DNA of 64,000 bases from Candidatus Omnitrophica bacterium UBA6233 (GTDB lineage: Bacteria > Omnitrophota > Gorgyraeia > Gygaellales > Profunditerraquicolaceae). This document shows positions 1 to 17,990 of the stretch, in pieces. Each line of letters begins with the position of its first letter. The first letter of the stretch is position 1. The stretch is from assembly GCA_002440965.1 (NCBI GenBank), contig DJWJ01000011.1:61427-125426 (forward strand), read 5' to 3'. The notes under the pieces are model-generated. The model did not search any database, was not told the origin of the DNA, and saw nothing but the letters and a program-made list of their open reading frames with translations. A program made the position numbers and the translations under genes.

Positions 1-49
1 GTACATCGCAGTAATTCCATACTTTCTGCACTATTTCATTTTCGCTCAT
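1..49 (-). CDS. hsdM: Type I R-M methyltransferase subunit HsdM, 5' end only. The gene starts at 49 and runs off the window edge.
   Basis: The reverse complement of 1-49 reads ATG AGC GAA AAT GAA ATA GTG CAG AAA GTA TGG AAT TAC TGC GAT GTA, translating to MSENEIVQKVWNYCDV. This matches the conserved HsdM N-terminus (compare EcoKI ..DLVAKLWKLCDNLRDGG). Only 16 codons are visible. Confidence 0.5.
   Translation of the reverse strand, partial: MSENEIVQKVWNYCDV
3..49. repeat. Direct repeat copy A (matching 1040-1086), covering the hsdM start region
   Basis: About 43 of 47 nt are identical to 1040-1086. The mismatches are ctgc versus tggg and one g/a. Both copies encode MSENEIV(Q/P)KVWNYCDV on the minus strand. 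Confidence 0.8.
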
Positions 50-317
50 AGATTTTACCTATCTTTCTTCATGCCATAGACTTAAATTTGTAGATTTCTC
101 AACAGAATATGTTATAATATTAATATGAGGCATTTAACTCTTGCTAAAACAAACCGCTACTTAAGAAACCGCGTTGCCCGTGCGATTTTACTCGGACGTA
201 CTACCATTAGTTCGGCCGCAGTGGAAGGTATCCATACTTGCAAACACACTCGCGCCAATGGCGTTTCCCCCAGCCGTTCAAAACACAATAGCGCCGCCGT
301 TTTATCCAAATAACATT

Positions 318-977
318 CTACACGTTTCTATCCGCTTTTTTCAAAGAATATTCTATAATCTTTCGAAAAATTATTTTCATCGGTACATAATTATGGCTAA
401 GCGCGGCACGCACTGCTGAAAAATACGGCTTTTCCCTCTTCTCTCCGGAAATAAGATAGAAATCAAAAGGCGGAAGTCCGGCCTGTAACCCCATCAATAC
501 CGCCAATAATCTCGCTAATCTGCCGTTACCTTCCCGAAAAGGATGGATCAGGACTAATTCAGCATGCGTTAGCGCAATAGCGTAACTTACCGCATCGATA
601 TCTCCCCGGCACGGCGTATAACGCGCAAGAATCTCCTTCTCAAAATCATCCATCAGCTGGGGAATATATGCAGCCGAGGCGAACTGGAATCCAGATTTGC
701 CGATATTGATATTGCGATATGTCCCTGCCCATTCGTATATCTTCCCTAACCAATTCTTATGCATAGCGCGAATGTCTGCCGCCGTAAATCGTTTGCCGGA
801 ATCTATGGTTTCAATATATTTCCCTAAAATTCGCGCGTGCTCGGAAATCTCCAAAGCCTCCATATCGCGCAAACGGGTAATCCCGCGCAGATTCATTAAA
901 ACCTTGCCGCGAGAACCAGGCTGAAGTTGCGCCTCCGGATAACCCGACACATCATATTTATCGCCTTTAGCGTTCAT
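318..977 (-). CDS. fic: Fic/Doc family protein (probable AMPylator or toxin)
   Basis: A 219 aa ORF carries the canonical Fic motif HPFREGNGRLARL. A GGAAG RBS lies 6 nt upstream. The gene sits 10 nt downstream of the hsdM-remnant stop. Confidence 0.85.
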   Translation of the reverse strand: MNAKGDKYDVSGYPEAQLQPGSRGKVLMNLRGITRLRDMEALEISEHARILGKYIETIDSGKRFTAADIRAMHKNWLGKIYEWAGTYRNINIGKSGFQFASAAYIPQLMDDFEKEILARYTPCRGDIDAVSYAIALTHAELVLIHPFREGNGRLARLLAVLMGLQAGLPPFDFYLISGEKREKPYFSAVRAALSHNYVPMKIIFRKIIEYSLKKADRNV

Positions 978-987
978 ATAATCTTCC

Positions 988-1086
988 TTATTTCAAATGC
1001 TCCACATAATCGCCGTAGCTGACGCCATCATCCCACAGCACATCGCAGTAATTCCATACTTTTGGGACTATTTCATTTTCACTCAT
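988..1086 (-). pseudogene. Truncated duplicate of the hsdM 5' end (32 codons then TAA)
   Basis: The reverse complement gives MSENEIVPKVWNYCDVLWDDGVSYGDYVEHLK*. This aligns with the HsdM N-terminal domain (EcoKI LVAKLWKLCDNLRDGGVSYQNYVNELASLLFLK) and stops where HsdM would continue. Confidence 0.6.
1040..1086. repeat. Direct repeat copy B (matching 3-49)
   Basis: See copy A. The similarity also extends weakly into the RBS-side sequence (ataggtaaaatct versus aataggaaatttt). Confidence 0.8.
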
Positions 1087-1102: not shown

Positions 1103-2002
1103 CTAATCCATACGATGTATCCAATACCATTCTCTAACATCCTGTCCATTATCTTTTAAAGCATAAACCGCAACAAAAGCAAAAGTTCCTTTTTGATCCA
1201 ATGAATCAATATTAAAAAGCACCGGTGATTTAGAAAATGGATTAGGGATAGGATTAAAACCTATTAATCGCGTTGAAACTTTAATATTTTCAAAATCCGC
1301 CTTCAACCCAACAATATCTTTAGACGTTTCCTGACATTTATCAACAGCCCATTTCCAAAATTTACGATAATCCCATGAAGATTCCTTTCCGCCCTGTGGA
1401 ATAGCATGCCAATAACCTTTACTTGCCAAATCAGAATCAAACAATTTCGCACCTGGCGTAACCCATTTATTAACTAATTTGACATAATCTCGCCAAGGAC
1501 AATCTCTAACTTCAGAAAACTCATCTAATACCTCATTTTTCCCCGGTCTTACCCATCTCTTATTGCGATAAACTTCTAATGGCATAATTGCACCGGTTCT
1601 TCCAAAAGTAACTACAAAAATTCCAAGATGTCTGCGTTTATTATTTGTATCAGCTAAATAATGGTTAAACTGTAACCAAATAGATTGACCAAAGGTTTTA
1701 AACTGATATTCTTTACATGGAGTAAGAATTAAAAAACTGTCAGTATTTTTTGCAATCAAATAAGTTTTTACATTAGGCAAAAATGCTAATGTTCCATAAT
1801 CACGTTTATAGAATTCTTGCCGGCTAATTATTTCGTTTTGTGAATCTAATAAAACTTGCTTTTCTACAGTTTTTTCTTTCTTTTCGATAGAAGGATTAAA
1901 GAAATTTACACTAACGCTAATAATTGCAGCTAATATAGTACAACCGCCACAAATTAAAGCGGCTATAATACCAACACTAAATCTTTTCTTATTTTTTATC
2001 AT
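1103..2002 (-). CDS. Hypothetical membrane-anchored protein (N-terminal TM helix), function unknown
   Basis: A 299 aa ORF has the N-terminal hydrophobic segment VGIIAALICGGCTILAAIISV. It overlaps the upstream ORF by 14 nt. I recognise no domain in it. Confidence 0.55.
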   Translation of the reverse strand: MIKNKKRFSVGIIAALICGGCTILAAIISVSVNFFNPSIEKKEKTVEKQVLLDSQNEIISRQEFYKRDYGTLAFLPNVKTYLIAKNTDSFLILTPCKEYQFKTFGQSIWLQFNHYLADTNNKRRHLGIFVVTFGRTGAIMPLEVYRNKRWVRPGKNEVLDEFSEVRDCPWRDYVKLVNKWVTPGAKLFDSDLASKGYWHAIPQGGKESSWDYRKFWKWAVDKCQETSKDIVGLKADFENIKVSTRLIGFNPIPNPFSKSPVLFNIDSLDQKGTFAFVAVYALKDNGQDVREWYWIHRMD

Positions 2003-2612
2003 TTATTTGTTTAATAACTAAATGTTTTTCCATCTCTCCAAGATTATCAGTCCACACTCCATCCCAAGATATTTCAAACACATCATATTTCCGAGAAATA
2101 AAATTATCCGCAACGATTTCTAATTCAACGCGCATAGTTGAATTAGCAGATATATGTCCTTCAAAATTATTAGGCGTTCCGTAAGTACAAATCCTGAATT
2201 TTTTTTCAACAAGAAAACCAAAATCGGCAGTATCTTCTTTGGATATCATTGGAAACATTGGATGACTTTCTGCCGGAGCCCAAGTTAATTGCTGAGGAAC
2301 AAATACATTTGCCCGGTAAAAATTACCATCTGCCTTCTTTTTTAGTATTCCAACAAGTAATATTCGCACATTCTTAGCAGAAGACCAAGGGCGTTTATTT
2401 TTAACAGATAAATGATAATAAATAACCGATGGGCCATTACTAAAATGCGTTAATTCACCTTTAAAGTTTTTAGGTTCTAACACTAAACGAGGACCAGCAA
2501 AGAAATCTCTAAATTTGTCACCCCAGATAGCCATAACAGCTACAGCAACAGTTCCAACAGCAGTTAACCAATCCGTTAGCTTTCCAAAATTTACAGAAAT
2601 ATCACACGCCAT
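1989..2612 (-). CDS. Hypothetical membrane-anchored protein, function unknown
   Basis: A 207 aa ORF has the N-terminal hydrophobic segment LTAVGTVAVAVMAIW. It lies 19 nt downstream of the hsdS stop. I recognise no domain in it. Confidence 0.5.
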   Translation of the reverse strand: MACDISVNFGKLTDWLTAVGTVAVAVMAIWGDKFRDFFAGPRLVLEPKNFKGELTHFSNGPSVIYYHLSVKNKRPWSSAKNVRILLVGILKKKADGNFYRANVFVPQQLTWAPAESHPMFPMISKEDTADFGFLVEKKFRICTYGTPNNFEGHISANSTMRVELEIVADNFISRKYDVFEISWDGVWTDNLGEMEKHLVIKQINDKK

Positions 2613-2631: not shown

Positions 2632-3873
2632 TCACTTTTTACTTAATTCTAACTTCCCCTTCTTTATTCGTTCCAACAAACTCTCGACAGGCTCATCATT
2701 CGGATCCGGCTCAACCAACTTGCCTTCGAAGGCTTTTTTCAAAATACTCTGTTTCAGTCGCTCAATCTTCTCCAGTCCTTGCTCAACGGCATCCTCAAGC
2801 AATTTTGCCCGTTCAAAACGAGATTCAATATTCTCAACAATCTTCACCTGTTCTTCAGGAGAACAAAATTTAAACGGAACCTTTTTAAAGTTTCTAGATG
2901 AAATCCCTGCAACCGTTGTCCCGGTTTTAGCTCTTTCTAATCTCTTTTGAAAAAAAGTTGACATTATCTGATACATTACGAATTTATCAAAATTGTCCGA
3001 TCTTAATAAAACCATTCTTTGCGCAATCGAGAATTTATAATCCGGGATTAGAGAAACTTCTCCCATAGGAGCTTCAGTAGTCATTAAGACATCACCTTTA
3101 TGTGGAATTCCTCTAGTCATATACTTCTTGTAAGTCTCCTCAGTAACATATCGAATATTTTCAAGTCTTATTTGACCATTCCGAATGTTTGAAGTCCGCA
3201 AATGTATAACACCCTTATCCGCATACGGTGGAGTTCTCCCGCGATAATCAATGATTTTAAAAATACTCTCAATAGGTTTTTCTTGTTCAATTTTCTCAAA
3301 CGCCGATTTAAACACTGCCTGGCGATAGCGCTTAATTTCCTGCTGCACGCGCTCCAGCGAATCCTTGGCGCTATCCAGCCGCGAAAACAAGCTCTCAATC
3401 TTGGCGACAATACGTTTTTGTTCGGGATAAGAAACTACCGGCACAGTCAGACACTCTAATTCTTTCGTTGGCACACGAAGCTGGCCAGCGGTTCCTGTCA
3501 TTCGGCCCCGTAAAAACCTTCGAACACTCGCCTGGAGTAAAAAGTAAAAGTAAAACTTATTGTCGACACAATCTGGCAAACGTATGACATGGAATTCCGT
3601 TGAACCCAATCCAATCCCATTCCTCAAACCTCCCATCAAGGCAATTTTACCGTTTTCCATACATGGCGTAATCTTGGCAAAAATAATATCTCCATCTTGA
3701 AATAGGGTAAACCTTTTTAACCCATCCGAAAGTTTAATCGTTTCCGACAAATCAAACCTGCCACTTTCCACTTCAACAGCTTTCATCGACAGGAAACTTA
3801 CTGTAACATCTGTCTTGGCCCGAGGGATCGCCTTCGCCGGATTAATTATTGCTACATCACCAAGTATAATCAA
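2632..3873 (-). CDS. hsdS: Type I R-M specificity subunit HsdS (two target-recognition domains)
   Basis: A 413 aa protein has two TRD-like halves separated and followed by conserved helical spacer regions (..LFSRLDSAKDSLERVQQEIKRYRQAVFKSAFE.. and ..ESRFERAKLLEDAVEQGLEKIERLKQSILKKAFEGKL). This is the typical HsdS layout. Confidence 0.85.
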   Translation of the reverse strand: MIILGDVAIINPAKAIPRAKTDVTVSFLSMKAVEVESGRFDLSETIKLSDGLKRFTLFQDGDIIFAKITPCMENGKIALMGGLRNGIGLGSTEFHVIRLPDCVDNKFYFYFLLQASVRRFLRGRMTGTAGQLRVPTKELECLTVPVVSYPEQKRIVAKIESLFSRLDSAKDSLERVQQEIKRYRQAVFKSAFEKIEQEKPIESIFKIIDYRGRTPPYADKGVIHLRTSNIRNGQIRLENIRYVTEETYKKYMTRGIPHKGDVLMTTEAPMGEVSLIPDYKFSIAQRMVLLRSDNFDKFVMYQIMSTFFQKRLERAKTGTTVAGISSRNFKKVPFKFCSPEEQVKIVENIESRFERAKLLEDAVEQGLEKIERLKQSILKKAFEGKLVEPDPNDEPVESLLERIKKGKLELSKK

Positions 3874-3980: not shown

Positions 3981-4706
3981 TTAAGAAATAAGGGATTCGA
4001 GATTGTTACGCAATTGAGCTTTAACAACATCAATATTAAGAGACCAAATATCAGCTAAAGACGAAATTGCCCCTTGAGTTTCCCATGGCATGATCGGCAA
4101 TTTACCATTAGTGACAAACGGCCCATCCGTCTCCAGAAGAACCTTCTCACGAGGCATTAACTTTATCAATTCCCGCCCTTTCGCACCTAATATCATTGCA
4201 GGACCGACACTAAACCAACAGCCCATTGTAATAGCCCGCTGCAATTCATTCGTTGTCCCAGAAAACCAATGTAATATCGCTGTCCCGGATCGAGGATATT
4301 CTTCAAGCAAATCCAGAACAGCATTGACAGCACACCTCGAATGAATACTCATAATCCTTCCACCTTGCTTTTCACACTCAGCTAAAACATTTAAAAATAT
4401 ATCCTTTTGCAATGGAAAGAATTCCTGATTCTTTGGCGTTCCGTCAAGACCTATCTCTCCAATAAACTGAACCTTCGCAACATCTGCCAGTAACATTTTT
4501 AATTCATTCGCTTTTTTATTCGCTATTTCAGGATGCAGCCCAAGGGCAACCTTAATATTTGTATATCCCGAGAATCTTTGTGACGTCACTTGCCAAGCTC
4601 TAGGGCTAGTCGTTACGACTAGAGTAAAAATATTTCGCTTTGAAACCATTGGAAGCAACTTTAAAGAATCCTGATAAAGATCAAGATGGGAATGAAAATC
4701 AATCAT
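3981..4706 (-). CDS. TatD-family metal-dependent nuclease/hydrolase (QatD-like)
   Basis: A 241 aa ORF has the N-terminal MIDFHSHLD (the HxH motif of TatD) and a TIM-barrel-type conservation pattern. It overlaps the upstream QueC-like gene by 4 nt. Confidence 0.8.
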   Translation of the reverse strand: MIDFHSHLDLYQDSLKLLPMVSKRNIFTLVVTTSPRAWQVTSQRFSGYTNIKVALGLHPEIANKKANELKMLLADVAKVQFIGEIGLDGTPKNQEFFPLQKDIFLNVLAECEKQGGRIMSIHSRCAVNAVLDLLEEYPRSGTAILHWFSGTTNELQRAITMGCWFSVGPAMILGAKGRELIKLMPREKVLLETDGPFVTNGKLPIMPWETQGAISSLADIWSLNIDVVKAQLRNNLESLIS

Positions 4707-5983
4707 ATAACCCCATGCTTTATTAAAAGCTGCCCGAGTTCATCCAACCCCCGAGATAAGACTCCTTCATATTGAGGACGATCAGTCGATGACGCAAAAG
4801 AAAGCGCTCCGCCTGCGAAGCGTTGTATCCCATATTTTTTATAATTTAAATAGGCCATAGCCACCGCCCCAATATCGTTAGGACCAAATTCACGGCCCGC
4901 TTTAGACAAGTCTTGAAAATGATAATTATTCACCGTGGTATCAGTTAATTGTGCTTTTAAGAAGGCTGCACGCCTAACCAAGCAAGGCAAACATCTGCCA
5001 CAATGAACTAGTTTATATCGACCAAACTTCCCACAACTTGTAGACTCCCCTATTAAACCAGTCAATTTTGCCTGATCACAACATCCACTAAGAATCTCGC
5101 CTTTAGTTTTAAATCGAAAAGGGAAAGATAATTTTACTGGGATACTTAGCATGTCCCAAATTTCTTGAAGGCCTCCAGCATAAAGGGGATGCGTGGTTTT
5201 CGTGCTCAAGCTGCCGCTTCTTCCTGAATTAAGTGATGGATTAAGACTCATAAAGCCGTTCTCGGGAACAACAACTTCTATAGGTGCTTCGGATCGAGAA
5301 TTTAAGGCAGATGCCGCAAGAAGCCCGTATGCAAAAAAGATTATTGAGCGTCCCCGAGTTGAACTTTCACACCTATTAAACAAGCTTACTGGATGGCTCC
5401 AATTAAAATACCGACTAGAAGCACCCAAGGTGTTTGCAAACCTCATTTGTGATTTTCTATCACCTTTGACGACTTGAGAAACAAATAAAGGTTTTCTCCC
5501 CGTAGCTGTCAAGTCAATTGCGCCAACAAGACTATCCATACCACCCGAAAGTAACGAAATACAATCTGCATCATAAGAAGCGAGAACTGATGCTTGTGGA
5601 GGTGGCTCAGCTCCAGGAAGAAAGTTTAATTTCCAAAAATCACCAGTTAAAACACGTAAAATCGATTCTAACCGAGATTTTTGTTGTACCCATAGTCCGT
5701 GTTCACAAAGATAAACATCCACTTCAATAACGCGCGTCCATCCATCGGAACTGTTCGACCTCTTACATGATAAATCAGCAGCTGCCACTGCTAACGCAAT
5801 TGACAGAAAATCCCACACGCGTACAGTCGGACTAAAACCTTTCTTTTTAACATCACTACGCAATGTTGGCGCAATGTGCCCAACACCATCACGATGTGAA
5901 TAAGAATACATCGAGAAATAGTTGACGTCATTCACTAGTGTTGCTGGCAAAATAGAATCTGGGGCACAAATAACTTTGTTCAT
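4703..5983 (-). CDS. QueC-like PP-loop ATPase with an extra N-terminal domain (QatC-like)
   Basis: A 426 aa ORF has the PP-loop SLLSGGMDSLVGAIDL about 145 aa from the N-terminus. It has a C-terminal Cys cluster CGKFGRYKLVHCGRCLPC, like the Zn site of QueC. No queD, queE, queF or tgt neighbours are present. Confidence 0.8.
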   Translation of the reverse strand: MNKVICAPDSILPATLVNDVNYFSMYSYSHRDGVGHIAPTLRSDVKKKGFSPTVRVWDFLSIALAVAAADLSCKRSNSSDGWTRVIEVDVYLCEHGLWVQQKSRLESILRVLTGDFWKLNFLPGAEPPPQASVLASYDADCISLLSGGMDSLVGAIDLTATGRKPLFVSQVVKGDRKSQMRFANTLGASSRYFNWSHPVSLFNRCESSTRGRSIIFFAYGLLAASALNSRSEAPIEVVVPENGFMSLNPSLNSGRSGSLSTKTTHPLYAGGLQEIWDMLSIPVKLSFPFRFKTKGEILSGCCDQAKLTGLIGESTSCGKFGRYKLVHCGRCLPCLVRRAAFLKAQLTDTTVNNYHFQDLSKAGREFGPNDIGAVAMAYLNYKKYGIQRFAGGALSFASSTDRPQYEGVLSRGLDELGQLLIKHGVI

Positions 5984-6837
5984 ATAGCACCTTCATATAC
6001 ACTAAAAGTATTCGCTAATGCTTCTTGAATAACAGTTGCCATCTGTCTCGAATCTAGATTGGCATTCCCTTCTCGCAACTGACGAATCTGGGCAGCAATT
6101 TCAGCCCTCATGTATTCACCCATTTCATTCACCCGTTGCACAACGTCTTTCGGATCTAACTTGGCGCTTTCAAAAAGTTGGCCGATATCAAGCTGCAATC
6201 GTGTGGATGCCTCATTTGCCAAAAAAAGCTCAACCACTGTCCAAATATCCGCGTCGTTCATTTTAAGCAAATTCACATTCGGCTGAATTCGTAACAAATC
6301 AGACATTGCACCATTCATAGAGTTTCGACACGATTCTTCATCAAGGCTCCCTCCATCTGATACAACCAAACGGCCGATTTCATCAATCACATCCCTTGCC
6401 GTTGACGTCCTAGCCACTAAAGCATTAATCCACTGGTTAATACGTTGATCAGTACCATCTCGTACTGTTTGAAAAAACGAAACCAGGCCAGCCGCAGTCC
6501 TAGCTGACAAACGCATACGTTTCGCCACGTTTTTCGCACCGCCCATCCCCAGATGGGAATAATGACCAACTGCTTTTCTAAAATGCCCCTCGTCTCCCGT
6601 TCTAGCAAAAATCCCCATTTCTCTTCGGGCATTTGCAAATCGTCGAGCAGGAGCAACACTCACCGGCTGATTCACTTCCAATGGTTGATCTGGTGGCGCA
6701 GTTTCCCTTGGATTATTCCCATTAGGCTCATCTGCTGGCACACTAGGAATAATCAATGGATTACCAATCTGATCAAGCCAAGGAGGATCAAAACCTACCC
6801 CGGCACCAGGCCCTGAACTTGAAGTAGACGTTCCCAT
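5980..6837 (-). CDS. QatB-like protein of unknown function
   Basis: A 285 aa ORF has a Gly/Ser/Pro-rich N-terminus (MGTSTSSSGPGAGVGFDPPW..) followed by a helical region. Its position between the NTPase and the QueC-like gene matches Qat gene order. Confidence 0.5.
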   Translation of the reverse strand: MGTSTSSSGPGAGVGFDPPWLDQIGNPLIIPSVPADEPNGNNPRETAPPDQPLEVNQPVSVAPARRFANARREMGIFARTGDEGHFRKAVGHYSHLGMGGAKNVAKRMRLSARTAAGLVSFFQTVRDGTDQRINQWINALVARTSTARDVIDEIGRLVVSDGGSLDEESCRNSMNGAMSDLLRIQPNVNLLKMNDADIWTVVELFLANEASTRLQLDIGQLFESAKLDPKDVVQRVNEMGEYMRAEIAAQIRQLREGNANLDSRQMATVIQEALANTFSVYEGAI

Positions 6838-8706
6838 TTATTTTCTTCCTTGCATTGAGATAGCATTCTTAACTTGTACAGGAGTATTCGCATCCTGCGA
6901 CCAGCGCTGCAGCATATCTTGAGCCCACGCCTCTCCTTTAATATGAGGAATCAGTGGCGCGGGGCGATTAGCCGCTGGTATCGTTTCAAGATTTGATACA
7001 AATAATGGCCCTAGTCCCGCGAACGCCCTAGTTACATGAAGACATCGAATTAAAGATGACAACGACCATTGCTCCGCCCGCGAAAGTCTCAATAATCGGG
7101 ACAATATACTTCCACACTCTACTTCACCAAGAGTTTGCAATTGAGTAATCATAGGCTGCTGAATAACTTCTCTTATCTCGGCTAACGCTGTTAACAATTC
7201 TTTCCCTCTAACAGAAAGTTCATCAAAACTTGCAAAATTCATCGCCTTATCTCGGCTCAAATATAATAATGGGCGAAGATCAATAGCAGCTAAACGTGGA
7301 GTAAGTTTTAACCATTCGGCAATAAAGGGTACATTCCAGCAAGGATCAGGTGAGCTATACACCTCTCCTTTTGCAAGAGCATCCTCAATTGCCTTCAAAA
7401 AAGAAGGTTTTCCATCGCTGCTTTCGGAAACTTTTCTTACTAAATATTCAAATGCCAAAGCCGGGGCACAACGCTCAAATAGCTGCAATTTCACTAATTC
7501 CTCAAAGGCTACAGTCATACCTTGGCTTCTTGCAACCGTATCTCGAATCATGAGATTATTTAAAAATCTTTTTATCAATCTAGGATTACCTGCGATATTG
7601 TCTGCCGTCGCCATAAGACCGGCAAGTTGATCTGCCAAATCAATTTGAGAACCAATCTTGGTGACTTCTGCACCAAAAGCCTCTTCCATTGTCTTCCGTG
7701 TCAGACAGCCTTTCCAAGAATCTCGAGCTGCTTCTAAAATTTTAACTTGTGCCTCTGCTAATACTTCTTTTAAAATTACCCCACGCCTCTGTTCCAAGTC
7801 AGCTAACAACAGAATCAAATAGGCTTTTACTTCACTGATGCTTAACCGAGGGACTTCCAGCGGAACCTGTATTAACTTGTCAAAATAACTAGTGACTAAA
7901 TTATCTTCCAAGTCATTAATCCCAAAATGCGCTCTAACCGCATTGCGGATCATCTGCTGATCAGCGGCAATAACAAAAGCCGTGCGGGGCAAAAATAGAA
8001 GTAACCGCATGGCCTCCAATGTAGAAATCGCAGTATTAGGAAGACATCGATCAAGGTCATCAACTAAGACAACCAGAGTAATATCTAAATCTTTTAGGAC
8101 CTCCTCAAAAGCTATTCTTAATCCTGCTATTTCTTTTGGAAGCGACTTTAATTCTTTATCTCTTAACAGACCTTTCAGTTCAGGCTCAAGCTCGGCATAA
8201 GCATTCTTAAGCTTCGTTAAATCTTCCTCAGACGGATTCCCCTGAGAGTTCGCAAGTCCACTGACAGCCCCAATGACTGCTCCAAGAGGCCCAGCCATCG
8301 TACCGCCGACAGCCATTCCGGTTAAAACCGGTGCAACAAGTTTTCCGACCCGGAACCATTTAACACGTTTTGCAAATTCGAGAGCCTTATCCAACGGTGT
8401 TTTTCTTTTTTCTGCTTCATCAAGCAAAGCGTCGGAAACAACTTGTAACAATGCCATTCTGGCATCATCGAAACCCTGATAAAGCCAAGCGTTAAAATTT
8501 ACAAAAATGTATTTCTTTCTTGATTCTTCATCTTTCTGTAAACAAACACCTATCATTTTCACTAACGATGATTTGCCAGATCCCCAGTTACCAGACACGC
8601 CTATCGACACCGGCTGACCATTTGATTCGCGAATAAGTTGAGCTGCTGTTTCTGCAACAACAGTAAAATTTAGTAAATCCGTCGTCGTTTCTACATCGTG
8701 CCACAT
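6838..8706 (-). CDS. KAP-family P-loop NTPase (QatA-like)
   Basis: A 622 aa ORF has the Walker A motif GVSGNWGSGKSSL (the KAP signature GxWGxGKS) and the Walker B motif LVVLVDDLDRC. It has a hydrophobic insert LVAPVLTGMAVGGTMAGPLGAVIGAV typical of KAP NTPases. An AGGAGG RBS lies 6 nt upstream. Confidence 0.75.
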   Translation of the reverse strand: MWHDVETTTDLLNFTVVAETAAQLIRESNGQPVSIGVSGNWGSGKSSLVKMIGVCLQKDEESRKKYIFVNFNAWLYQGFDDARMALLQVVSDALLDEAEKRKTPLDKALEFAKRVKWFRVGKLVAPVLTGMAVGGTMAGPLGAVIGAVSGLANSQGNPSEEDLTKLKNAYAELEPELKGLLRDKELKSLPKEIAGLRIAFEEVLKDLDITLVVLVDDLDRCLPNTAISTLEAMRLLLFLPRTAFVIAADQQMIRNAVRAHFGINDLEDNLVTSYFDKLIQVPLEVPRLSISEVKAYLILLLADLEQRRGVILKEVLAEAQVKILEAARDSWKGCLTRKTMEEAFGAEVTKIGSQIDLADQLAGLMATADNIAGNPRLIKRFLNNLMIRDTVARSQGMTVAFEELVKLQLFERCAPALAFEYLVRKVSESSDGKPSFLKAIEDALAKGEVYSSPDPCWNVPFIAEWLKLTPRLAAIDLRPLLYLSRDKAMNFASFDELSVRGKELLTALAEIREVIQQPMITQLQTLGEVECGSILSRLLRLSRAEQWSLSSLIRCLHVTRAFAGLGPLFVSNLETIPAANRPAPLIPHIKGEAWAQDMLQRWSQDANTPVQVKNAISMQGRK

Positions 8707-8965: not shown

Positions 8966-11644
8966 TCACCCCACCAACGCCGTATTCAACTCCTCAATCA
9001 CTCCATCCAGATTATCTCCAAATACTTCTTTAGCCTTAATAATTCCTCCGCTGGCGCTGAAGGGCGGCAGGAGGAAATCGTTTTTATCCACACTACCGGA
9101 ACCGGCGATGTGCTCAGAGATCATCGTCAGCCACTGGATTTGTTTTGCGCTGAAAGTCTTACCTAAAAATTGCTGGTTTTTCAGCCATTCCTGAAAGCGA
9201 TGCTCAACATGTTCCTTAAACGGCTCCAGGACCTCCTCTTGATGTATAGCAAAACGCACCAGGGAAACGATATCGGTTAATTGTTTCTGAATCGAGGCCG
9301 GGCGCACTTTGGATTTTTCCAGCTGTTCATAGGCGCGCCAGAGAGTATCGGTGGTAAAGCCGTAAGGCGGCATTTCGATTCTTTCGGCTAATTCGCGGAT
9401 CTCTTCATAGGTAACATGACGCTTTTTATACGGCAGGTTATAGAGGATCTGCAAAGCAGTAATTTTGTCTTTGTTCTCGGCGATAAACTGCTCAAATTTC
9501 TTGACGATGGACGAAGCTTTATCTTTGGACTGCTGATCGAATCCTGACTGGGTAATTGTATCTATAGTAACAGTATCAATGGTTTGTTCGGTCTTTTTAT
9601 GAAGCACGGTTAAAAGCTCGCGAAATTCAGGATTATCAAAAGGCGCGCAGGCTTGGTCCCGATCAGCGACGATATCCGGATCAATGACTGAGACCAGATC
9701 GTTGACGATGTTAGACAAAGACTTGCCGCCGGATACGGCCTTGATCCGCTCAATATCCCGGGGTTCCAGATCCAGATCCAGGCGCGACAAGCGCGAGGCC
9801 AGGCTGGATAAAGTGTCATTGTCGCGGATGCCGATGGCAATATTATTCAGAAGTTTTAGCGTAGGAACGCTTTTTTGCCTATCCAACGGGAAGCTCTGGG
9901 TCTTCTCGCTTTCGCACACGCCTACGGCGTCAACCAGAATAAAATGGGTCTTAGTTTTGGCGTCAGGAGTTACAGCCATAAGGTCATCGGAATCAATTAC
10001 CCGCGTGCCGCGGCCTTTCATCTGCTCAAAGTATATTGCGGATTTAACGTCGCGCATAAAAAGAATACATTCCAGCGGCTTAATGTCGGTACCGGTAGAA
10101 ATCATGTCCACGGTTACGGCAATCCGGGGATTGAAACTATTGCGAAAGGCGGCGATCAGGTCGTCGGTGCTCTCCTGGGTGCGGTAGGTGATCTTCTTAC
10201 AGAAATCATTGCCTTTGCCGAATTCTTCGCGCACAATCTCGGTGATGTCTTCGGCGTGGCTGTCGTCTTTGGCAAAAATCAGGGTTTTGGGCACTTCAGT
10301 GCGGCCGGGGAAAATTTCCGTAGAAAGTTTATCCTTAAATTCCCGAATAACCGTGCGGATCTGGTCTTTAACTACAATACTGCGGTCAAGCTGATCCGGG
10401 GCATATTCGATGTCTTCGTCCAACTTTTCCCAACGGAGTTTGCGAGTAAGCCGGTCGCGTTTATCCACGTAGAAACCGGAAGGGATTTTGCCACCCTCTT
10501 CGGTGGTCTTAGTGCGGATGCGGTACACATCAAAGCCAACGTTGACTTTATCCGCGACTGCCCGGTTATGATCGTATTCCATGACTAAGTTTTTGTTGAA
10601 AAAACCGATGGTCTGATTTGAAGGAGTTGCGGTTAGGCCGATGATAAAAGAATCAAAGTATTCCAGGACCTGACGCCAAAGGTTGTAAATGGAGCGGTGG
10701 CATTCATCAACGATGATGAAATCAAAGGTTTCTACGGGAATTTTGCCGCTGAATTGCACTGCTTGCGGATCAATATCCGGGGCATCGGATTCATAAAGAG
10801 ACTTTTCATCGAGACTGGCGTCCAAATCCTGGTCACCTTTAAGCATGGAAAACAGGCGCTGAATAGTGGTAATGCAGACTTTGGCGCCGGGGTCAAAGAC
10901 GTTAGTGGTCATGTGCTGGACGATATAAAGATCAGTAAAGTTGCGATTATCGTCAAAAGGGATATAATTCTGGAACTCTTTTCTGACTTGCCGGCCCAGG
11001 GAACAGCGGTCAACCAAAAAGAGAATCCGGCGGGCTTTGGCAAATTTAATCAAGCGGTAAATCTCGCTGATAGCGGTGTAGGTTTTGCCACTGCCGGTAG
11101 CCATTTGCAACAGGGCGCGCGGCTTGGCTTGGCGCAAAGATTTTTCCAGGTTAGTGATAGCCTCGATCTGGCATTGGCGGAGATTATAGGGATCCAAAGG
11201 CGGTAATTCGCGCAGGCGCTGACGCAAAGATTTATCCTGTTCAAGCCAATCAGCTAACGTATCCGGGGAATGAAAAGCGAATACGCGGCGCGAACGGGCG
11301 TCCGGATCGCGGTTATTGCGGTAAAAAGTTTCTATGCCGGTGGATTCGTAAGCAACCGGAAGAATATCATCAACTCGGGGAAGATTATCGAGAACCGAAG
11401 AGTTATAGCGGGCGGTTTGCTCGGCAACTCCGGAAAGAGTAATCCCCTCAGCTTTAGCTTCTACTGTACCCACGGCTTTGCGGTCGACAAAAAGCATGTA
11501 ATCAGCCGGGCCGGATTTGGTAGGAAATTCACGCACAGCTACTCCCCTGCCGGCGGAAAGATTAATCTTACGGATATCCTGAATAATCCAGCCTGCTTCT
11601 TTTAATAACCCGTCAATCACCTGCCTCGCTTCGGCTTCGCTCAT
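8966..11644 (-). CDS. hsdR: Type I restriction enzyme R subunit HsdR
   Basis: An 892 aa ORF has the HsdR N-terminal nuclease region MSEAEARQVIDGLLKEAGW..KSGPADYMLFVDRKAVGTVEAKAEG. It has SF2 helicase motif I (MATGSGKTYTA) and motif II (IIVDECHRS). Its GC content is higher than the rest of the window. Confidence 0.9.
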   Translation of the reverse strand: MSEAEARQVIDGLLKEAGWIIQDIRKINLSAGRGVAVREFPTKSGPADYMLFVDRKAVGTVEAKAEGITLSGVAEQTARYNSSVLDNLPRVDDILPVAYESTGIETFYRNNRDPDARSRRVFAFHSPDTLADWLEQDKSLRQRLRELPPLDPYNLRQCQIEAITNLEKSLRQAKPRALLQMATGSGKTYTAISEIYRLIKFAKARRILFLVDRCSLGRQVRKEFQNYIPFDDNRNFTDLYIVQHMTTNVFDPGAKVCITTIQRLFSMLKGDQDLDASLDEKSLYESDAPDIDPQAVQFSGKIPVETFDFIIVDECHRSIYNLWRQVLEYFDSFIIGLTATPSNQTIGFFNKNLVMEYDHNRAVADKVNVGFDVYRIRTKTTEEGGKIPSGFYVDKRDRLTRKLRWEKLDEDIEYAPDQLDRSIVVKDQIRTVIREFKDKLSTEIFPGRTEVPKTLIFAKDDSHAEDITEIVREEFGKGNDFCKKITYRTQESTDDLIAAFRNSFNPRIAVTVDMISTGTDIKPLECILFMRDVKSAIYFEQMKGRGTRVIDSDDLMAVTPDAKTKTHFILVDAVGVCESEKTQSFPLDRQKSVPTLKLLNNIAIGIRDNDTLSSLASRLSRLDLDLEPRDIERIKAVSGGKSLSNIVNDLVSVIDPDIVADRDQACAPFDNPEFRELLTVLHKKTEQTIDTVTIDTITQSGFDQQSKDKASSIVKKFEQFIAENKDKITALQILYNLPYKKRHVTYEEIRELAERIEMPPYGFTTDTLWRAYEQLEKSKVRPASIQKQLTDIVSLVRFAIHQEEVLEPFKEHVEHRFQEWLKNQQFLGKTFSAKQIQWLTMISEHIAGSGSVDKNDFLLPPFSASGGIIKAKEVFGDNLDGVIEELNTALVG

Positions 11645-11805: not shown

Positions 11806-13212
11806 CTATCGGGGTGAGTTTTTTAGCAATAGGATTACTTGGGAGAGGTTGCGCAGGGCGGATTCCGGGCGGTAGGAGGCGACTTTGGAGTTTACTTCCC
11901 TCACCTTTTCATAGCCGTAGGTTTGGATTAGCCCCAGGTAGGTTTCGATTTTTTCTAAGTCTTTGGGCTCATTGAGTTGGGCGGAAAGCTGGCAGGCTTG
12001 TTGAGTCAAATCAGGGGTGTATTTATCGGATAATGCCTGGAGCGCTTGCCGGAATTGTTCCGGGGATTGCAAAGGATTCAGGCGGTAGTCGTTAGCCGGG
12101 CGTTTGTCGAATTCTCCTTCTTTTTCGGGCCTGTGCCTGTAAACTTCCAGAATATTTTCCTTTTCCAGTTCGGTTATGGCGCTGGTAATCGAGCGCTCAG
12201 AGATGTAATATATCCGGCTTAAGTCGGCGTTACTTCTGAACCAATAGGGATTATGGCTGGATCTTTGGGCTTCGCTCAGAGAAACTAAAAACATATATTT
12301 TGCCGCAAAGGAAAGTTTTTGGCAGAAACCATAATCCCAATAAGTATCCGGAATAGTAATGTTTTCCGTAAAGGATGTGTAGATGAGTTCAAGATTTTTG
12401 CTCCAGGGTTTATGCTGGATGAGGCCGTATTTTCGGGTTAGCTTTCTTAGAGGCTGAAAAAGATTAAAATAGTAATTATTGGTGTAACCCAGGGCTTGGC
12501 CGAATTCCGGATAGTTGATTTTTATGACGGATGAATGTTCGCTTTGGGCTTTTTTTGCCAGATACAAATACAGGTCAAAGGCTTTTTCCGAGTGGCTGGT
12601 GAAGAGTTCAAATAAAAGAGGATTGGGCGCGGAAGTTAAAAGGCTAACCGGCAGTTTCAAACCCGGCAGTTGTTGAGGCTGGATAGGCGGATTAAGGCTT
12701 AATTCGATTTTAGAGATATAATCCAGCAGTTTCCCGGCTTGCCTCGGGCTTTCGGTGTAAACGGCGAATTCGTAGTTGTCGCGCAAAGAGGCGCGGGTCC
12801 AGTTAAAACTGCCGAGGATACAAATTTTGGAATCGATGACCAGGCCTTTGCCGTGAAGCACGGCTTTAGAGCTATCGATGGCTGCATTTACGCCGGCTTG
12901 CCGGAGGCGTTTATAGGCGTTGTAATTGACTTTGAAGGTAGTGTCATCCAGGATAACCTTCACGTATACGCCTCTATTTTTAGCGCTGATCAGGCCTTCC
13001 AGGAGGATTGAAGCGGGGTTATCAGTGGGCGCGGGTTCCACGCTAATGAGATAGATGGCTACGTAGATTGATTTTTGCGCTTTTTGGATAGCTTGGAGGG
13101 TAGTCAGGAAATAATCTTTGCCGATGAGAATATCGCTGCGCTCGCCGGCAAAAACAGGCGCAAAGCTAAAGGCAAATAAAGTTATAAGGATTATGAGTAA
13201 GTATCGACGCAT
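11806..13212 (-). CDS. Secreted PLD-family (single HKD motif) protein with a C-terminal region of unknown function
   Basis: A 468 aa ORF has an N-terminal signal-peptide-like segment MRRYLLIILITLFAFSFAPVFAG. It has the HKD motif LHGKGLVIDSKICILGSFNWT. The C-terminal ~250 aa are unassigned. The coding sequence is GC-rich. Confidence 0.7.
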   Translation of the reverse strand: MRRYLLIILITLFAFSFAPVFAGERSDILIGKDYFLTTLQAIQKAQKSIYVAIYLISVEPAPTDNPASILLEGLISAKNRGVYVKVILDDTTFKVNYNAYKRLRQAGVNAAIDSSKAVLHGKGLVIDSKICILGSFNWTRASLRDNYEFAVYTESPRQAGKLLDYISKIELSLNPPIQPQQLPGLKLPVSLLTSAPNPLLFELFTSHSEKAFDLYLYLAKKAQSEHSSVIKINYPEFGQALGYTNNYYFNLFQPLRKLTRKYGLIQHKPWSKNLELIYTSFTENITIPDTYWDYGFCQKLSFAAKYMFLVSLSEAQRSSHNPYWFRSNADLSRIYYISERSITSAITELEKENILEVYRHRPEKEGEFDKRPANDYRLNPLQSPEQFRQALQALSDKYTPDLTQQACQLSAQLNEPKDLEKIETYLGLIQTYGYEKVREVNSKVASYRPESALRNLSQVILLLKNSPR

Positions 13213-13315: not shown

Positions 13316-13819
13316 TCAAAATTCAATGCCCCGGCGGGCATATATGCCATTCTTGAAATAGTGTTTGATTTCTTTTATTTCGCTGACCAGATCGGCTGCT
13401 TTTATTATTTTGGGGTGGGCAGAGCGGCCGGTAAGAATCAATTCTTTTTTCTTAGGAAGGCATTTTATAAGGCCTAAAACATCTTTTAAACCGATAAGCT
13501 TAAGCTTTAAGGCGACGTTTATCTCATCGAGCACGACTAATGAATATTTTTTCTCCAGTATCGCTTTTTTAGCCGCCCTTAACCCGGATTGCGCCAGCTT
13601 GATATCTTCTTGCCGGGGTAAACGGCGGATAAAACATTTTGCCCCGAATTGTTCAACTTTTATATCCTTAAATTTCTTTAAAGAACGCAGCTCACCGTAA
13701 TATTTGCCTTTTAAGAATTGACAGATATATACCTTTTTGCCGGCGCCGGCTGCCCTTAAAGTTAAACCCAATGCCGCGGTAGTTTTACCTTTTCCGTTAC
13801 CGGTATATACCTGAATCAC
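13316..13819 (-). CDS. cobO: Cob(I)alamin/cob(I)yrinic acid a,c-diamide adenosyltransferase (CobO/BtuR family)
   Basis: A 167 aa ORF has the N-terminal MIQVYTGNGKGKTTAALGL typical of CobA/CobO. Confidence 0.8.
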   Translation of the reverse strand: MIQVYTGNGKGKTTAALGLTLRAAGAGKKVYICQFLKGKYYGELRSLKKFKDIKVEQFGAKCFIRRLPRQEDIKLAQSGLRAAKKAILEKKYSLVVLDEINVALKLKLIGLKDVLGLIKCLPKKKELILTGRSAHPKIIKAADLVSEIKEIKHYFKNGIYARRGIEF

Positions 13820-13873
13820 CCCATTGCTCCTTGTTTAACGAACTTAAGCGAGTAGGCAGTATTTAGGGAAAAC

Positions 13874-14536
13874 CTACCTGCTGCCTGCTTTTATAATGAA
13901 TTTTATGAATCTAAACGTATCTACGATGGGGTTAATCTGGCTCTTCTCTCCCCGGTAGACTGTTTTAATCGGAACTGACGCTATCTTAAAACCCGCCCTT
14001 GAGGCGTTAAGCAATATTTCGGTCTCTATTTCAAAGTTGGAAGTCTTTAATTCGATTTTTTCGAGCGCGCGCCTTTTAATCAGCCGGTATCCGCACTGGG
14101 TGTCGGGAATCTTCTGTTTGCATAAAAGCGAGATCATCCACGACATAAACCTGTTGGTAATTATACGGATGAACGGCATATTCTTTGTATAGCTCATCCG
14201 GTTGCCTACCACTATGCCAGCCTCGGAAGTAACGGCCAGGTTTATAAAACCCGGTAAATCTTCCGGCAAATGCTGCCCATCGCCATCCATAACTAGCGCG
14301 GCGTCAAAACCGTTTTCTATGACATAACGAAAACCCTTTTTCAAGCAAGCGCCTTTGCCCTGATTGACAGAATTACGCAAAACTGTCGCTCCCGCGGCTT
14401 GCGCAAGCTCGGCAGTGGAATCGGCTGAACCGTCATCTACCACCAACACATCCGGATTTTTTTCTTTAATTTCCTTTATAAGCCGGGCTATTTCTTTAGA
14501 CTCATTATATGTAGGAATAATAACACAGATTTTCAT
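13874..14536 (-). CDS. Family 2 glycosyltransferase (polyprenyl-phosphate sugar transferase-like)
   Basis: A 220 aa ORF has MKICVIIPTYNE..VVDDGSADST and DGDGQH motifs of the GT2 family. Confidence 0.8.
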   Translation of the reverse strand: MKICVIIPTYNESKEIARLIKEIKEKNPDVLVVDDGSADSTAELAQAAGATVLRNSVNQGKGACLKKGFRYVIENGFDAALVMDGDGQHLPEDLPGFINLAVTSEAGIVVGNRMSYTKNMPFIRIITNRFMSWMISLLCKQKIPDTQCGYRLIKRRALEKIELKTSNFEIETEILLNASRAGFKIASVPIKTVYRGEKSQINPIVDTFRFIKFIIKAGSR

Positions 14537-14600
14537 CGTTCGACTCCCTTTGGTCGCTCACGATGACCCTGAGCAAGCACAGCGCGTCGAAGGGTCATTC
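14537..14600. repeat. R1 hairpin repeat, copy 1, between lpxL and the GT2 gene
   Basis: The sequence cgTTCGACTCcctttggTCGCTCACgATGAcCCTGAG..AAGGGTcAT is homologous to the elements at 32967-33023 and 53964-54066. The inverted arms are ATGACCCT and AGGGTCAT. Confidence 0.7.
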
Positions 14601-15452: not shown

Positions 15453-15462
15453 TAATGATATG

Positions 15463-17750: not shown

Positions 17751-17756
17751 TGGGTT

Positions 17757-17990
17757 TTATCTCTCTTCAATTATGCCTAAAACTTCGCCCACCTTAACCG
17801 GCATACCTTCTGGAACCATAATTTCAGAAAGCATCCCGGAGCAGGGACTCGGTAAATTAAACGTGGACTTATCCGTAGCCAGCTCTACCAAGTCGTCTTT
17901 TTCCCCTACCTTCTCTCCGACTTTAAAATACCAATAAGAAACTGTCGCCTTATCAATCCCTTCCCCTAATTCAGGTAAAACTATCTTCAT
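17757..17990 (-). CDS. Stand-alone lipoyl/biotinyl-attachment domain protein
   Basis: A 77 aa ORF has LVELATDKSTFNLPSP with the conserved Lys in a beta-hairpin context, like 2-oxoacid dehydrogenase E2 lipoyl domains or the GcvH fold. Confidence 0.6.
   Translation of the reverse strand: MKIVLPELGEGIDKATVSYWYFKVGEKVGEKDDLVELATDKSTFNLPSPCSGMLSEIMVPEGMPVKVGEVLGIIEER

What the first reader, a model, noticed from the sequence alone, without database searches (positions are those of the whole stretch)
1103..2612. Two overlapping membrane-anchored proteins of unknown function embedded in the R-M/defence operon
ORFs of 207 aa and 299 aa are wedged between hsdS (19 nt upstream) and the hsdM-remnant/fic pair (16 nt downstream). 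They overlap each other by 14 nt. Each has a single N-terminal TM helix followed by a soluble domain. I can assign neither to any family. Gene pairs sandwiched inside type I R-M loci are frequently abortive-infection or other defence modules, so this is a plausible undescribed two-component system. The operon context is hsdS -> 207 -> 299 -> hsdM' -> fic.
Basis: inference. Interest (0 to 1): 0.7.

Follow-up and report, generated by a model that had tools for sequence, protein, structure and literature searches.

The report
Two membrane proteins inside restriction operon
Two real but uncharacterised membrane-protein genes sit inside a restriction-enzyme operon; they face opposite sides of the membrane, usually occur apart in other genomes, and are plausible but untested anti-phage genes.

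Summary
A is 207 aa (1989-2612, minus strand) and B is 299 aa (1103-2002, minus strand). They overlap by 14 nt and lie between hsdS and a 32-aa hsdM remnant followed by fic. Both are conserved and under purifying selection. Neither matches Pfam, NCBIfam, PHROGs, PADLOC or PDB sequences.

Each has one N-terminal membrane helix and an Ig-like beta-sandwich, but they are unrelated and probably oppositely oriented.
- A: charge bias puts its sandwich in the cytoplasm. Its membrane helix is its best-conserved part.
- B: its anchor and linker vary and its domain is strongly conserved. About 80% of its distant relatives start with a hydrophobic, Sec-signal-like segment, so the domain is probably periplasmic.

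The two-component reading is weak. A and B are adjacent in 2 of 9 B contexts. All other A contexts examined, about 23 loci, lack B and share no recurrent neighbour. Two of them are phage or prophage.

B recurs in the hsdS-hsdM slot of one type I R-M lineage, directly between the two genes in two loci, although hsdM synonymous sites are saturated between loci.

Best reading: two separable, operon-embedded cargo genes, probably envelope-level phage-exclusion candidates. Function is untested.

The parts
1989..2612 (-). Gene A, 207 aa. It has an N-terminal membrane helix and a C-terminal Ig-like beta-sandwich that is predicted to be cytoplasmic.
2520..2579 (-). Membrane helix of A (aa 12-31, LTDWLTAVGTVAVAVMAIWG), the most conserved segment of the protein. 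Small residues form a stripe at A18, T21, A25, A28 and G31.
   Evidence: Mean majority-residue frequency is 0.74 in the helix, with 10 of 20 columns at 0.9 or above. In the beta-sandwich it is 0.58, with 20 of 161 columns.
1103..2002 (-). Gene B, 299 aa. It has a basic N-terminus (KNKKR), one variable membrane anchor, a variable linker and a strongly conserved domain that is probably periplasmic.
1910..1975 (-). Membrane anchor of B (aa 10-31). It is not conserved in sequence.
   Evidence: The Kyte-Doolittle 19-residue maximum is 2.58 at residues 10-28. None of 21 columns reaches 0.9 conservation.
1106..1828 (-). Conserved domain of B (aa 59-299). Motifs include WLQFNH, LEVYRNKxWxRP, KGxWHAIPxGG, SWxYRxFW and KVSxRLI.
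   Evidence: 85 of 241 columns are at 0.9 or above. H114, W150 and S209 are invariant across 54 sequences that include distant relatives. 88 representatives were found by full HMMER search. 69 of 86 representatives examined start with an N-terminal hydrophobic, signal-like segment.
2632..3873 (-). hsdS, the type I specificity subunit, 19 nt upstream of A.
   Evidence: Pfam Methylase_S at 8.8e-20. PADLOC Specificity_I at 1.9e-94.
988..1086 (-). 32-aa remnant of the hsdM 5' end, 16 nt downstream of B.
   Evidence: PADLOC MTase_I positions 1-31 at E 1.7e-10. B's 3' end, the spacer and the hsdM start in L045 are collinear with the window's B end, spacer and remnant.
318..977 (-). Fic-domain gene (PADLOC candidate PDC-S04), a separate cassette inserted at the hsdM 5' end.
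   Evidence: Pfam Fic at 2.8e-17. PDC-S04 at 2e-65. It is flanked by direct repeats.
1..56 (-). Start of the true hsdM: the start codon is at window 49 and the gene runs off the left edge. Positions 3-56 are one copy of a 54-nt direct repeat whose other copy is 1040-1093.
   Evidence: The direct repeat D1 is 89% identical. The window start maps to L015 position 12002, and the full 484-aa hsdM is at L015 11954-13408.
3981..8706 (-). QatABCD defence system lying between hsdR and hsdS (context).
   Evidence: PADLOC QatA 2.1e-124, QatB 7.7e-31, QatC 1e-86, QatD 3.2e-81.
8966..11644 (-). hsdR, the type I restriction subunit (context).
   Evidence: Pfam EcoEI_R_C at 2.7e-43, ResIII at 5.4e-38 and HSDR_N.

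Best explanation
Summary: A and B are two genuine, unrelated, separately mobile single-gene modules. They sit as cargo in the variable slot between hsdS and hsdM of one type I R-M lineage and are co-transcribed with it.

B (shown):
- It is the recurrent occupant of that slot.
- It has a short basic N-terminus, a poorly conserved anchor helix, a variable linker and a strongly conserved beta-sandwich domain.
- The domain carries His/Trp/Arg/Ser-rich loops.

B (inferred):
- The domain faces the periplasm.
- It binds or modifies an envelope or phage component and hinders phage genome delivery. This would resemble membrane-anchored superinfection-exclusion proteins and would complement restriction in the cytoplasm.

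A (shown):
- It belongs to a larger family of stand-alone genes that are scattered sparsely across bacteria and archaea, including prophages.
- Its membrane helix is its most conserved part and carries a small-residue stripe.

A (inferred):
- Its Ig-like domain is cytoplasmic.
- It works as a homo-oligomer. The cytoplasmic domain senses an infection cue and the helices perturb the membrane (abortive-infection-like), or they occupy a membrane site that phages need.

The A-B adjacency in two lineages suggests they sometimes travel or cooperate together. Each clearly also exists alone.
For: Anatomy:
- No minus-strand terminator lies between hsdS and fic.
- A's model has pLDDT 88.7 with a helix at 9-39 and a beta-sandwich.
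- B is a beta-sandwich with a helical insert.
- A and B are not homologous: hhalign probability 0.3.

Topology:
- A's flanks have K+R 14 on the N side and 86 on the C side across 31 sequences.
- Full HMMER search found 88 representatives of the B superfamily, mostly about 265 aa.
- 69 of the 86 examined start with an N-terminal hydrophobic segment. Many end in AxA-like sites, for example ...LASAQD and ...PAAAQE.

Conservation pattern:
- In A the membrane helix is the best-conserved segment. In B the anchor is variable and the domain is conserved.

Embedding of B:
- L045 has hsdS-B-hsdM with gaps of 7 and 25 nt.
- L047 has hsdS-B with a 1-nt overlap, then hsdM and Mrr.
- L044 has hsdS, a 309-aa gene, then B.
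- L046 has hsdS, an hsdM remnant, Peptidase_U49 and further genes, then B.
- hsdM proteins in L015, L045 and L047 are about 90% identical, but their synonymous sites are saturated (pS 0.73-0.80). The arrangement is therefore old.
- L001 has Dam and N6_N4 MTases, then A, B and GmrSD.
- P0137 lies in an AbiE/PIN/RelE island.
- The distant relative P0228 lies beside AAA_23-MC2-CTD6 and an MTase.

Separability:
- tblastn finds no B in any of the A-only loci examined, and no A in seven B contexts.
- A has no shared neighbour family across 20 loci.

Mobility of A:
- L009 has A beside an integrase, with a tape-measure protein and a capsid gene nearby. L042 is a viral contig with A beside terminase and portal genes.
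- L013 has A near an IS1595 element.

Other:
- A and B have the lowest GC in the locus, 0.33-0.34 against 0.40-0.49.
- Precedent for defence genes embedded in type I R-M comes from Payne et al. (bioRxiv 10.1101/2024.01.29.577857) and TgvAB (PMC11411939).
Against: - No functional evidence of any kind exists.
- B's most conserved loops (residues 141-164 and 190-208) are modelled with pLDDT below 50.
- B's own charge bias is ambiguous: N-flank K+R 45, C-flank 38. Its topology therefore rests on the distant relatives.
- Two B contexts (L005, L006) are not obviously defence-related.
- Neighbours of stand-alone A genes are mostly housekeeping genes, with only scattered defence hits.
- The B loci were retrieved through B itself. 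How often this R-M lineage lacks B is unknown.
- The R-M-embedded B loci share one R-M lineage, so they are not fully independent.
- B was not found in phages, which are the classical home of exclusion proteins.
Confidence: 0.45

Rival explanations
1. A and B form one obligate two-component transmembrane system. B senses an event in the periplasm and signals through the membrane helices to A, whose cytoplasmic domain or helix bundle executes the response.
For: - Both families are very rare, yet they are adjacent, in the same order (A then B), in two different contexts.
- Those contexts are type I R-M in the window and type II-like MTases with GmrSD in L001. The copies are diverged (A 72%, B 53% identity).
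- The two A-linked B proteins fall in different B sub-lineages.
- The genes overlap by 14 nt in the window and have similar low GC.
- Opposite topologies would suit signalling across the membrane.
- B without A is sometimes next to another single-pass membrane protein: L005 (DUF4760-like), L048 (209 aa) and L006 (54 aa).
- TgvAB shows that R-M-embedded pairs can be obligate.
Against: - Seven of nine B contexts lack A. These include hsdS-B-hsdM loci with only 7-25 nt gaps, which leave no room for a partner.
- About 23 other A contexts lack B, and A has no recurrent neighbour.
- B's anchor helix, the only part that could touch A inside the membrane, is not conserved.
- The other single-pass neighbours of B are not related to A.
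Confidence: 0.17
2. B is an accessory factor of this particular type I R-M lineage rather than an independent defence gene. It could be a PrrC-like guard, a regulator, or a factor that places or couples the enzyme at the membrane where foreign DNA enters. A would be unrelated cargo.
For: - B sits directly between hsdS and hsdM, with a 1-nt overlap or a 7-nt gap, in loci whose hsdM synonymous sites are saturated. That implies long co-inheritance.
- The window shows the same arrangement, later disrupted by the fic insertion.
- PrrC is a known gene found almost only inside type I R-M systems.
Against: - Only about 9 residues of B are predicted to be cytoplasmic, so it has little surface with which to contact a cytoplasmic R-M complex.
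- B or close relatives also occur without any type I R-M: L001, L005, L006 and L048.
- B evolves about 3 to 5 times faster than hsdM at non-synonymous sites.
- B has no NTPase or nuclease domain.
Confidence: 0.13
3. Neither gene is a defence gene. They are accessory envelope proteins, for example with surface, adhesion or envelope-maintenance roles, or selfish hitch-hikers that accumulate in recombination hotspots such as the hsdS-hsdM slot.
For: - Ig-like beta-sandwiches are typical of surface and adhesion proteins.
- Stand-alone A genes mostly have housekeeping neighbours.
- L005 and L006 place B among biosynthetic genes.
- The B superfamily consists of ordinary-looking secreted proteins in many bacteria.
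Against: [quoted passage not shown]
- Seven of nine B contexts are defence or toxin-antitoxin islands, and one distant relative lies beside an ABC-3C-like system.
- A's predicted cytoplasmic domain does not fit a surface role.
- A occupies prophage accessory-gene positions.
Confidence: 0.22

Closest known systems
Candidate defence genes embedded in type I R-M, BREX, DISARM or Hma systems (PADLOC PDC/HEC sets; Payne et al., bioRxiv 10.1101/2024.01.29.577857)
   Same: The genes are on the same strand and tightly packed between subunit genes of a type I R-M system. They lie next to a recognised embedded candidate, Fic (PDC-S04), and to QatABCD.
   Different: Neither A, B nor 53 B relatives match any PADLOC model. 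Both are membrane proteins with no recognisable enzymatic domain.
TgvAB, a two-gene GmrSD-like system embedded in the Vibrio cholerae type I R-M (PMC11411939)
   Same: It is a gene pair wedged inside a type I R-M operon. It is the experimental precedent that such pairs can defend.
   Different: TgvAB proteins are GmrSD-like restriction proteins that need each other for protection. A and B are membrane proteins that mostly occur apart.
Membrane-anchored superinfection-exclusion proteins such as lactococcal Sie2009, S. thermophilus Ltp and T4 Sp (from general knowledge, not tested here)
   Same: The architecture proposed for B matches: an N-terminal anchor and a modest extracytoplasmic domain acting at the envelope.
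   Different: Those proteins are encoded by phages or prophages. B was not found in phage collections. No sequence similarity appeared in PHROGs. Whether B blocks DNA entry is untested.
Single-protein membrane effectors with a cytoplasmic sensor domain, such as CBASS Cap15, Pycsar PycTM and type III CRISPR Cam1 (from general knowledge)
   Same: The architecture proposed for A matches: a membrane helix or helices plus a small cytoplasmic beta-rich domain. Its membrane segment is conserved and rich in small residues, which is compatible with oligomerisation.
   Different: Those effectors are activated by a nucleotide signal made by a partner enzyme in the same operon. A has no conserved partner and is not homologous to them.
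PrrC, the anticodon nuclease embedded in type I R-M
   Same: Like B, it is found inside type I R-M operons, in PrrC's case almost exclusively.
   Different: PrrC is a cytoplasmic NTPase-nuclease (general knowledge). B has neither domain and probably faces the periplasm.

Membership tests
Defence-system-embedded candidate genes (guilt-by-embedding class) | The gene lies between, and on the same strand as, genes of a known multi-gene defence system. | tested here: met
   The order is hsdR, QatABCD, hsdS, A, B, hsdM', fic, hsdM, all on the minus strand.
Defence-system-embedded candidate genes (guilt-by-embedding class) | The embedding recurs in other loci. | tested here: met
   This is met for B in L045, L047, L044 and L046. 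All four share one R-M lineage. For A, embedding in an R-M system is seen only in the window lineage.
Defence-system-embedded candidate genes (guilt-by-embedding class) | The protein matches an existing PDC, HEC or known-defence profile. | tested here: not met
   PADLOC gives no families for A, B or the other 53 members of alignment A4.
Defence-system-embedded candidate genes (guilt-by-embedding class) | Anti-phage activity on expression. | not testable with these tools
   This needs plaque assays.
Obligate two-gene defence system (TgvAB-like logic) | The two genes co-occur consistently across homologous loci. | tested here: not met
   A and B are adjacent in 2 of 9 B contexts and in 2 of about 25 A contexts.
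Type IV pilin / archaellin | A class III signal peptide: a basic leader, a Gly/Ala cleavage site and a domain outside the cell. | tested here: not met
   A's N-tails are acidic or neutral (K+R 14, D+E 39) and its C-flanks are basic (K+R 86). There is no conserved G/A at position -1.
Membrane-anchored superinfection-exclusion proteins | An N-terminal anchor with an extracytoplasmic functional domain. | tested here: inconclusive
   B's relatives carry signal-like N-termini in 69 of 86 cases. B's own charge bias is ambiguous, and no experimental topology exists.
Membrane-anchored superinfection-exclusion proteins | The gene is carried by phages or prophages. | tested here: not met
   B has no hits in IMG/VR or INPHARED phages. 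A does occur in one prophage and one viral contig.
Membrane-anchored superinfection-exclusion proteins | The protein blocks phage DNA entry or receptor use. | not testable with these tools
   This needs adsorption and injection assays.
Signal-activated membrane effectors (Cap15 / Cam1 / PycTM type) | A membrane segment plus a cytoplasmic sensor domain. | tested here: met
   This is met for A: a helix at 9-39, a beta-sandwich and a basic C-flank.
Signal-activated membrane effectors (Cap15 / Cam1 / PycTM type) | A signal-producing enzyme (cyclase, CD-NTase or CRISPR) in the same operon. | tested here: not met
   None is present in the window operon. A has no recurrent neighbour in 20 loci.
PrrC-like guard of type I R-M | A cytoplasmic NTPase plus a nuclease domain. 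| tested here: not met
   No such domains were found by Pfam or by fold search.
   Pfam and NCBIfam give no significant hits for A, B or B relatives. No conserved lipobox cysteine is present in the B alignment.

The most novel reading that the evidence does not exclude
B founds a previously unrecognised class: a periplasm-facing protein that is a stable, translationally coupled part of a type I R-M operon. It would act at the envelope in concert with restriction, for example by detecting or obstructing incoming phage DNA at the entry site. A would be a new family of self-contained sensor-pore membrane proteins that sometimes partners with B.
Probability: 0.15. Interest if true: 0.8.

Novelty: new variant of a known kind. 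Interest (0 to 1): 0.5.

Why it matters
Genes wedged inside restriction-modification operons have repeatedly turned out to be new anti-phage systems. Nearly all known examples are cytoplasmic nucleases or NTPases. Here the embedded genes are membrane proteins with no enzymatic signature.

One of them, B, probably faces the periplasm. It has stayed between hsdS and hsdM over a divergence at which synonymous sites are saturated. If B defends, it would add an envelope-level layer that is genetically coupled to restriction, and it would give a function to a superfamily of at least 88 representative clusters of secreted proteins that no database describes.

A would give a function to a family of at least 232 clusters spread across bacteria, archaea and prophages. 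If neither gene defends, the locus still documents a cargo slot in which cassettes are flanked by duplicated hsdM 5' ends.

Tried and rejected
Searches that found nothing:
- Pfam, PADLOC, NCBIfam and PHROGs scans of A and B.
- Pfam, PADLOC and NCBIfam scans of the 54 sequences of alignment A4 (B and 53 relatives).
- Profile searches of PDB sequences with A1 and A4.
- tblastn of A and B against cultured phages and plasmids.
- IMG/VR scan for B.
- The metagenome scan for B returned only 2 loci.

Fold searches gave only generic results:
- Foldseek of A against viral structures gave only uncharacterised membrane-helix plus Ig-like proteins.
- The AlphaFold-database library was unavailable.

Ideas rejected:
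- A and B as paralogues: hhalign probability 0.3.
- Neighbours of solo B genes as hidden A relatives: the L005 277-aa and 155-aa proteins and the L048 209-aa protein show no similarity to A.
- A as a pilin or archaellin: the charge bias is reversed and there is no cleavage motif.
- B as a lipoprotein: there is no conserved lipobox.
- A conserved partner for A: all-against-all BLAST of 131 neighbour ORFs gave no recurrent family.

Limits of the neighbour scans:
- The Pfam and PADLOC scans of A's neighbours report only pooled counts, so the number of loci with a defence gene could not be stated exactly.
- ORF calling in those high-GC loci was crude.
Full report
**1. The observation**

A is 1989..2612 (207 aa) and B is 1103..2002 (299 aa), and they overlap by 14 nt.

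- A starts 19 nt after the hsdS stop, behind an AAGGAGG ribosome-binding site.
- B ends 16 nt before a 32-aa ORF that matches positions 1-31 of a type I methyltransferase profile at E 1.7e-10.
- A Fic gene follows. It matches Pfam Fic at 2.8e-17 and PADLOC candidate PDC-S04 at 2e-65.
- No terminator-like site lies on the minus strand between hsdS and fic.

Both ORFs are real genes. A has 30 homologue clusters by single-sequence search and at least 232 by profile search, and B has 14. Length and motifs are conserved. dN/dS is 0.13 for A and 0.13-0.27 for B, although dS is near saturation. Neither matches Pfam, PADLOC, NCBIfam, PHROGs or any PDB sequence. NCBI annotates both as hypothetical proteins.

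**2. Wider context**

Upstream on the same strand lie hsdR (8966-11644) and a complete QatABCD system (3981-8706), followed by hsdS.

An essentially identical public contig (L015; A and B 100% identical, though its hsdS gene differs) extends beyond the window's left edge. There, fic is followed by a full 484-aa hsdM, then Abi_2 and RhuM genes. The window's position 1 falls 16 codons into that hsdM.

The 32-aa remnant after B and the true hsdM start form a 54-nt direct repeat (3-56 and 1040-1093, 89% identical) that brackets fic. In L045, the end of B, the spacer and the hsdM start are collinear with the window's B end, spacer and remnant. The older arrangement was therefore hsdS-(A)-B-hsdM, and fic arrived later at the hsdM 5' end.

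The host is probably a Candidatus Omnitrophota MAG. The island genes were binned into a Patescibacteria MAG in one assembly. A and B have the lowest GC in the locus, 0.33-0.34 against 0.40-0.49.

**3. Anatomy of A**

Across 31 family members, the 15 residues before the hydrophobic segment hold 14 K+R and 39 D+E. The 15 residues after it hold 86 K+R. By the positive-inside rule the sandwich is cytoplasmic. This is the reverse of a prepilin, and there is no conserved cleavage motif, so A is not a pilin.

The membrane helix is the best-conserved part of the protein. Ten of its 20 columns are at least 90% conserved, against 20 of 161 in the sandwich. It carries a stripe of small residues at A18, T21, A25, A28 and G31. 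I infer that the helix makes specific helix-helix contacts, most simply in a homo-oligomer.

**4. Anatomy of B**

The anchor (aa 10-31) and linker are variable, and the domain (aa 59-299) is strongly conserved, with 85 of 241 columns at 90% or above. B's own charge bias is not decisive.

A full HMMER search found 88 representative relatives, mostly about 265 aa, that match the domain only. Of the 86 examined, 69 begin with an N-terminal hydrophobic segment. Many of these look like Sec signal peptides ending in AxA-like sites. Most of the rest look truncated. I therefore place B's domain outside the cytoplasm, with about 0.8 confidence.

H114, W150 and S209 are invariant across 54 sequences. 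None of these relatives matches Pfam, PADLOC or NCBIfam. A and B are not homologous to each other.

**5. Is it a pair?**

Nine B contexts were recovered.

- A precedes B in two of them: the window lineage, and L001-L004. In L001-L004 the pair lies between Dam and N6_N4 methyltransferases and a GmrSD gene.
- L045 has hsdS-B-hsdM with gaps of 7 and 25 nt.
- L047 has hsdS-B with a 1-nt overlap, then hsdM and Mrr.
- L044 has hsdS, an unrelated 309-aa gene, then B.
- L046 has hsdS, another hsdM remnant, Peptidase_U49 and further genes, then B.
- L005 and L006 have B alone among biosynthetic genes.
- L048 has a 44%-identical relative in an AbiE/PIN/RelE island.

Conversely, A occurs without B in about 23 further loci.

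- It lies next to a prophage integrase in L009, in a Fib_succ/fn3 surface-protein gene cluster in L011, and near an IS1595 element in L013.
- It occurs in 19 species-representative genomes from Acidobacteriota, Chloroflexota, Proteobacteria and an archaeon.
- It occurs in one viral contig beside terminase and portal genes.

tblastn finds no B in any of these loci. All-against-all BLAST of 131 neighbour ORFs finds no recurrent partner. Their neighbours are mostly housekeeping genes, with scattered integrase and defence hits.

The pair is therefore not obligate. Even so, two such rare families being adjacent in the same order in two contexts, with the two B copies in different B sub-lineages, is unlikely to be chance. 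They sometimes travel or work together.

**6. B and the R-M lineage**

The hsdM proteins of L015, L045 and L047 are about 90% identical, but their synonymous sites are saturated (pS 0.73-0.80). B has therefore stayed in the hsdS-hsdM slot over a long time.

B evolves about 3 to 5 times faster than hsdM at non-synonymous sites. The slot also holds other cargo in different loci: A, a 309-aa gene, a Lit-like peptidase and fic. Two loci keep short hsdM 5' remnants. This suggests that cassettes are exchanged by recombination at the conserved hsdM start.

One caveat applies. All these loci were found through B, so how often the lineage lacks B is unknown.

**7. Mechanism**

What is shown:
- Two conserved single-pass membrane proteins with Ig-like domains are co-transcribed with a type I R-M system.
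- B is recurrently embedded.
- A is a mobile stand-alone gene.

What is inferred:
- The two proteins have opposite topology.
- B acts in the periplasm on an envelope or phage component and hinders genome delivery. This resembles membrane-anchored exclusion proteins such as Sie2009, Ltp or T4 Sp (general knowledge).
- A oligomerises through its conserved helix, and its cytoplasmic domain acts as a sensor. This resembles Cap15 or Cam1 in architecture but lacks a partner signal enzyme (general knowledge).

Precedent for defence genes embedded in type I R-M comes from Payne et al. and from TgvAB. I put about 0.45 on this reading as a whole. The defence role itself is near 0.55 for B and slightly lower for A.

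The rivals and their probabilities are:
- an obligate cross-membrane two-component system, 0.17;
- B as an accessory of the R-M enzyme itself, 0.13. This is weakened because only about 9 residues are cytoplasmic and because B occurs without R-M;
- non-defence envelope cargo, 0.22.

**8. Novelty and verdict**

Both families are absent from every curated library searched. Embedded candidate defence genes are a known kind. Membrane proteins without enzymatic domains in that position, one of them probably periplasmic, are an unusual variant of it.

The lead is clean, testable and somewhat surprising, but there is no functional evidence and no fold-based mechanism.

Noticed in passing
window 3-56 and 1040-1093; L046 4770-4829: A 54-nt direct repeat (89% identical) of the hsdM 5' end brackets the fic cassette, with 1037 nt between the copies. 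A similar 20-aa hsdM remnant precedes a Peptidase_U49 gene in L046. Cargo seems to be swapped by recombination at the hsdM start, which leaves short hsdM stubs.
   Followed up: partly
window 3981-8706: A complete QatABCD system lies between hsdR and hsdS of the same type I R-M locus. One defence system is therefore nested inside another.
   Followed up: partly
window 11806-13212: A 468-aa PLD-like (PLDc_2) protein lies just upstream of hsdR. It may be another nuclease-type defence gene or the edge of the island.
   Followed up: no
L015 11954-15929 (beyond the window's left edge): After fic the locus continues with a full-length hsdM, then Abi_2 and RhuM genes. The type I system is therefore probably intact, and the island is larger than the window shows.
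   Followed up: partly
window-wide (proteins at 1103-2612 and 13316-19500): In NCBI records the island proteins are assigned to a Patescibacteria MAG. The flanking housekeeping proteins on the same contig are assigned to Candidatus Omnitrophota MAGs. This is a likely binning conflict caused by the island's unusual composition.
   Followed up: no
proteins P0045-P0047, P0025, P0089: Some A-family members are fusions. In one type the A module is followed by about four more membrane segments and a C-terminal domain, giving about 600 aa. In another it is preceded by a multi-pass N-terminal region.
   Followed up: no
L009 7139-13373; L042 3587-10573: A-family genes sit in phage accessory-gene positions. 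In L009 the gene is next to a prophage integrase, with tape-measure and capsid genes nearby. In L042, an IMG/VR contig, it is next to terminase and portal genes.
   Followed up: partly
L051 7001-14090: A distant secreted relative of B lies beside an AAA_23-MC2-CTD6 (ABC-3C-like) gene set, an N6_N4 methyltransferase and IS110-type transposase genes.
   Followed up: no
L005 11000-11467; L048 9443-10072; L006 9794-9958: Where B lacks A, another small single-pass membrane protein sometimes lies beside it: a DUF4760-like 155-aa protein, a 209-aa protein and a 54-aa protein. None is related to A.
   Followed up: partly
L015, L045 and L047 hsdM and B genes: hsdM proteins are about 90% identical between loci although their synonymous sites are saturated. 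B in the same loci changes about 3 to 5 times faster at non-synonymous sites.
   Followed up: partly
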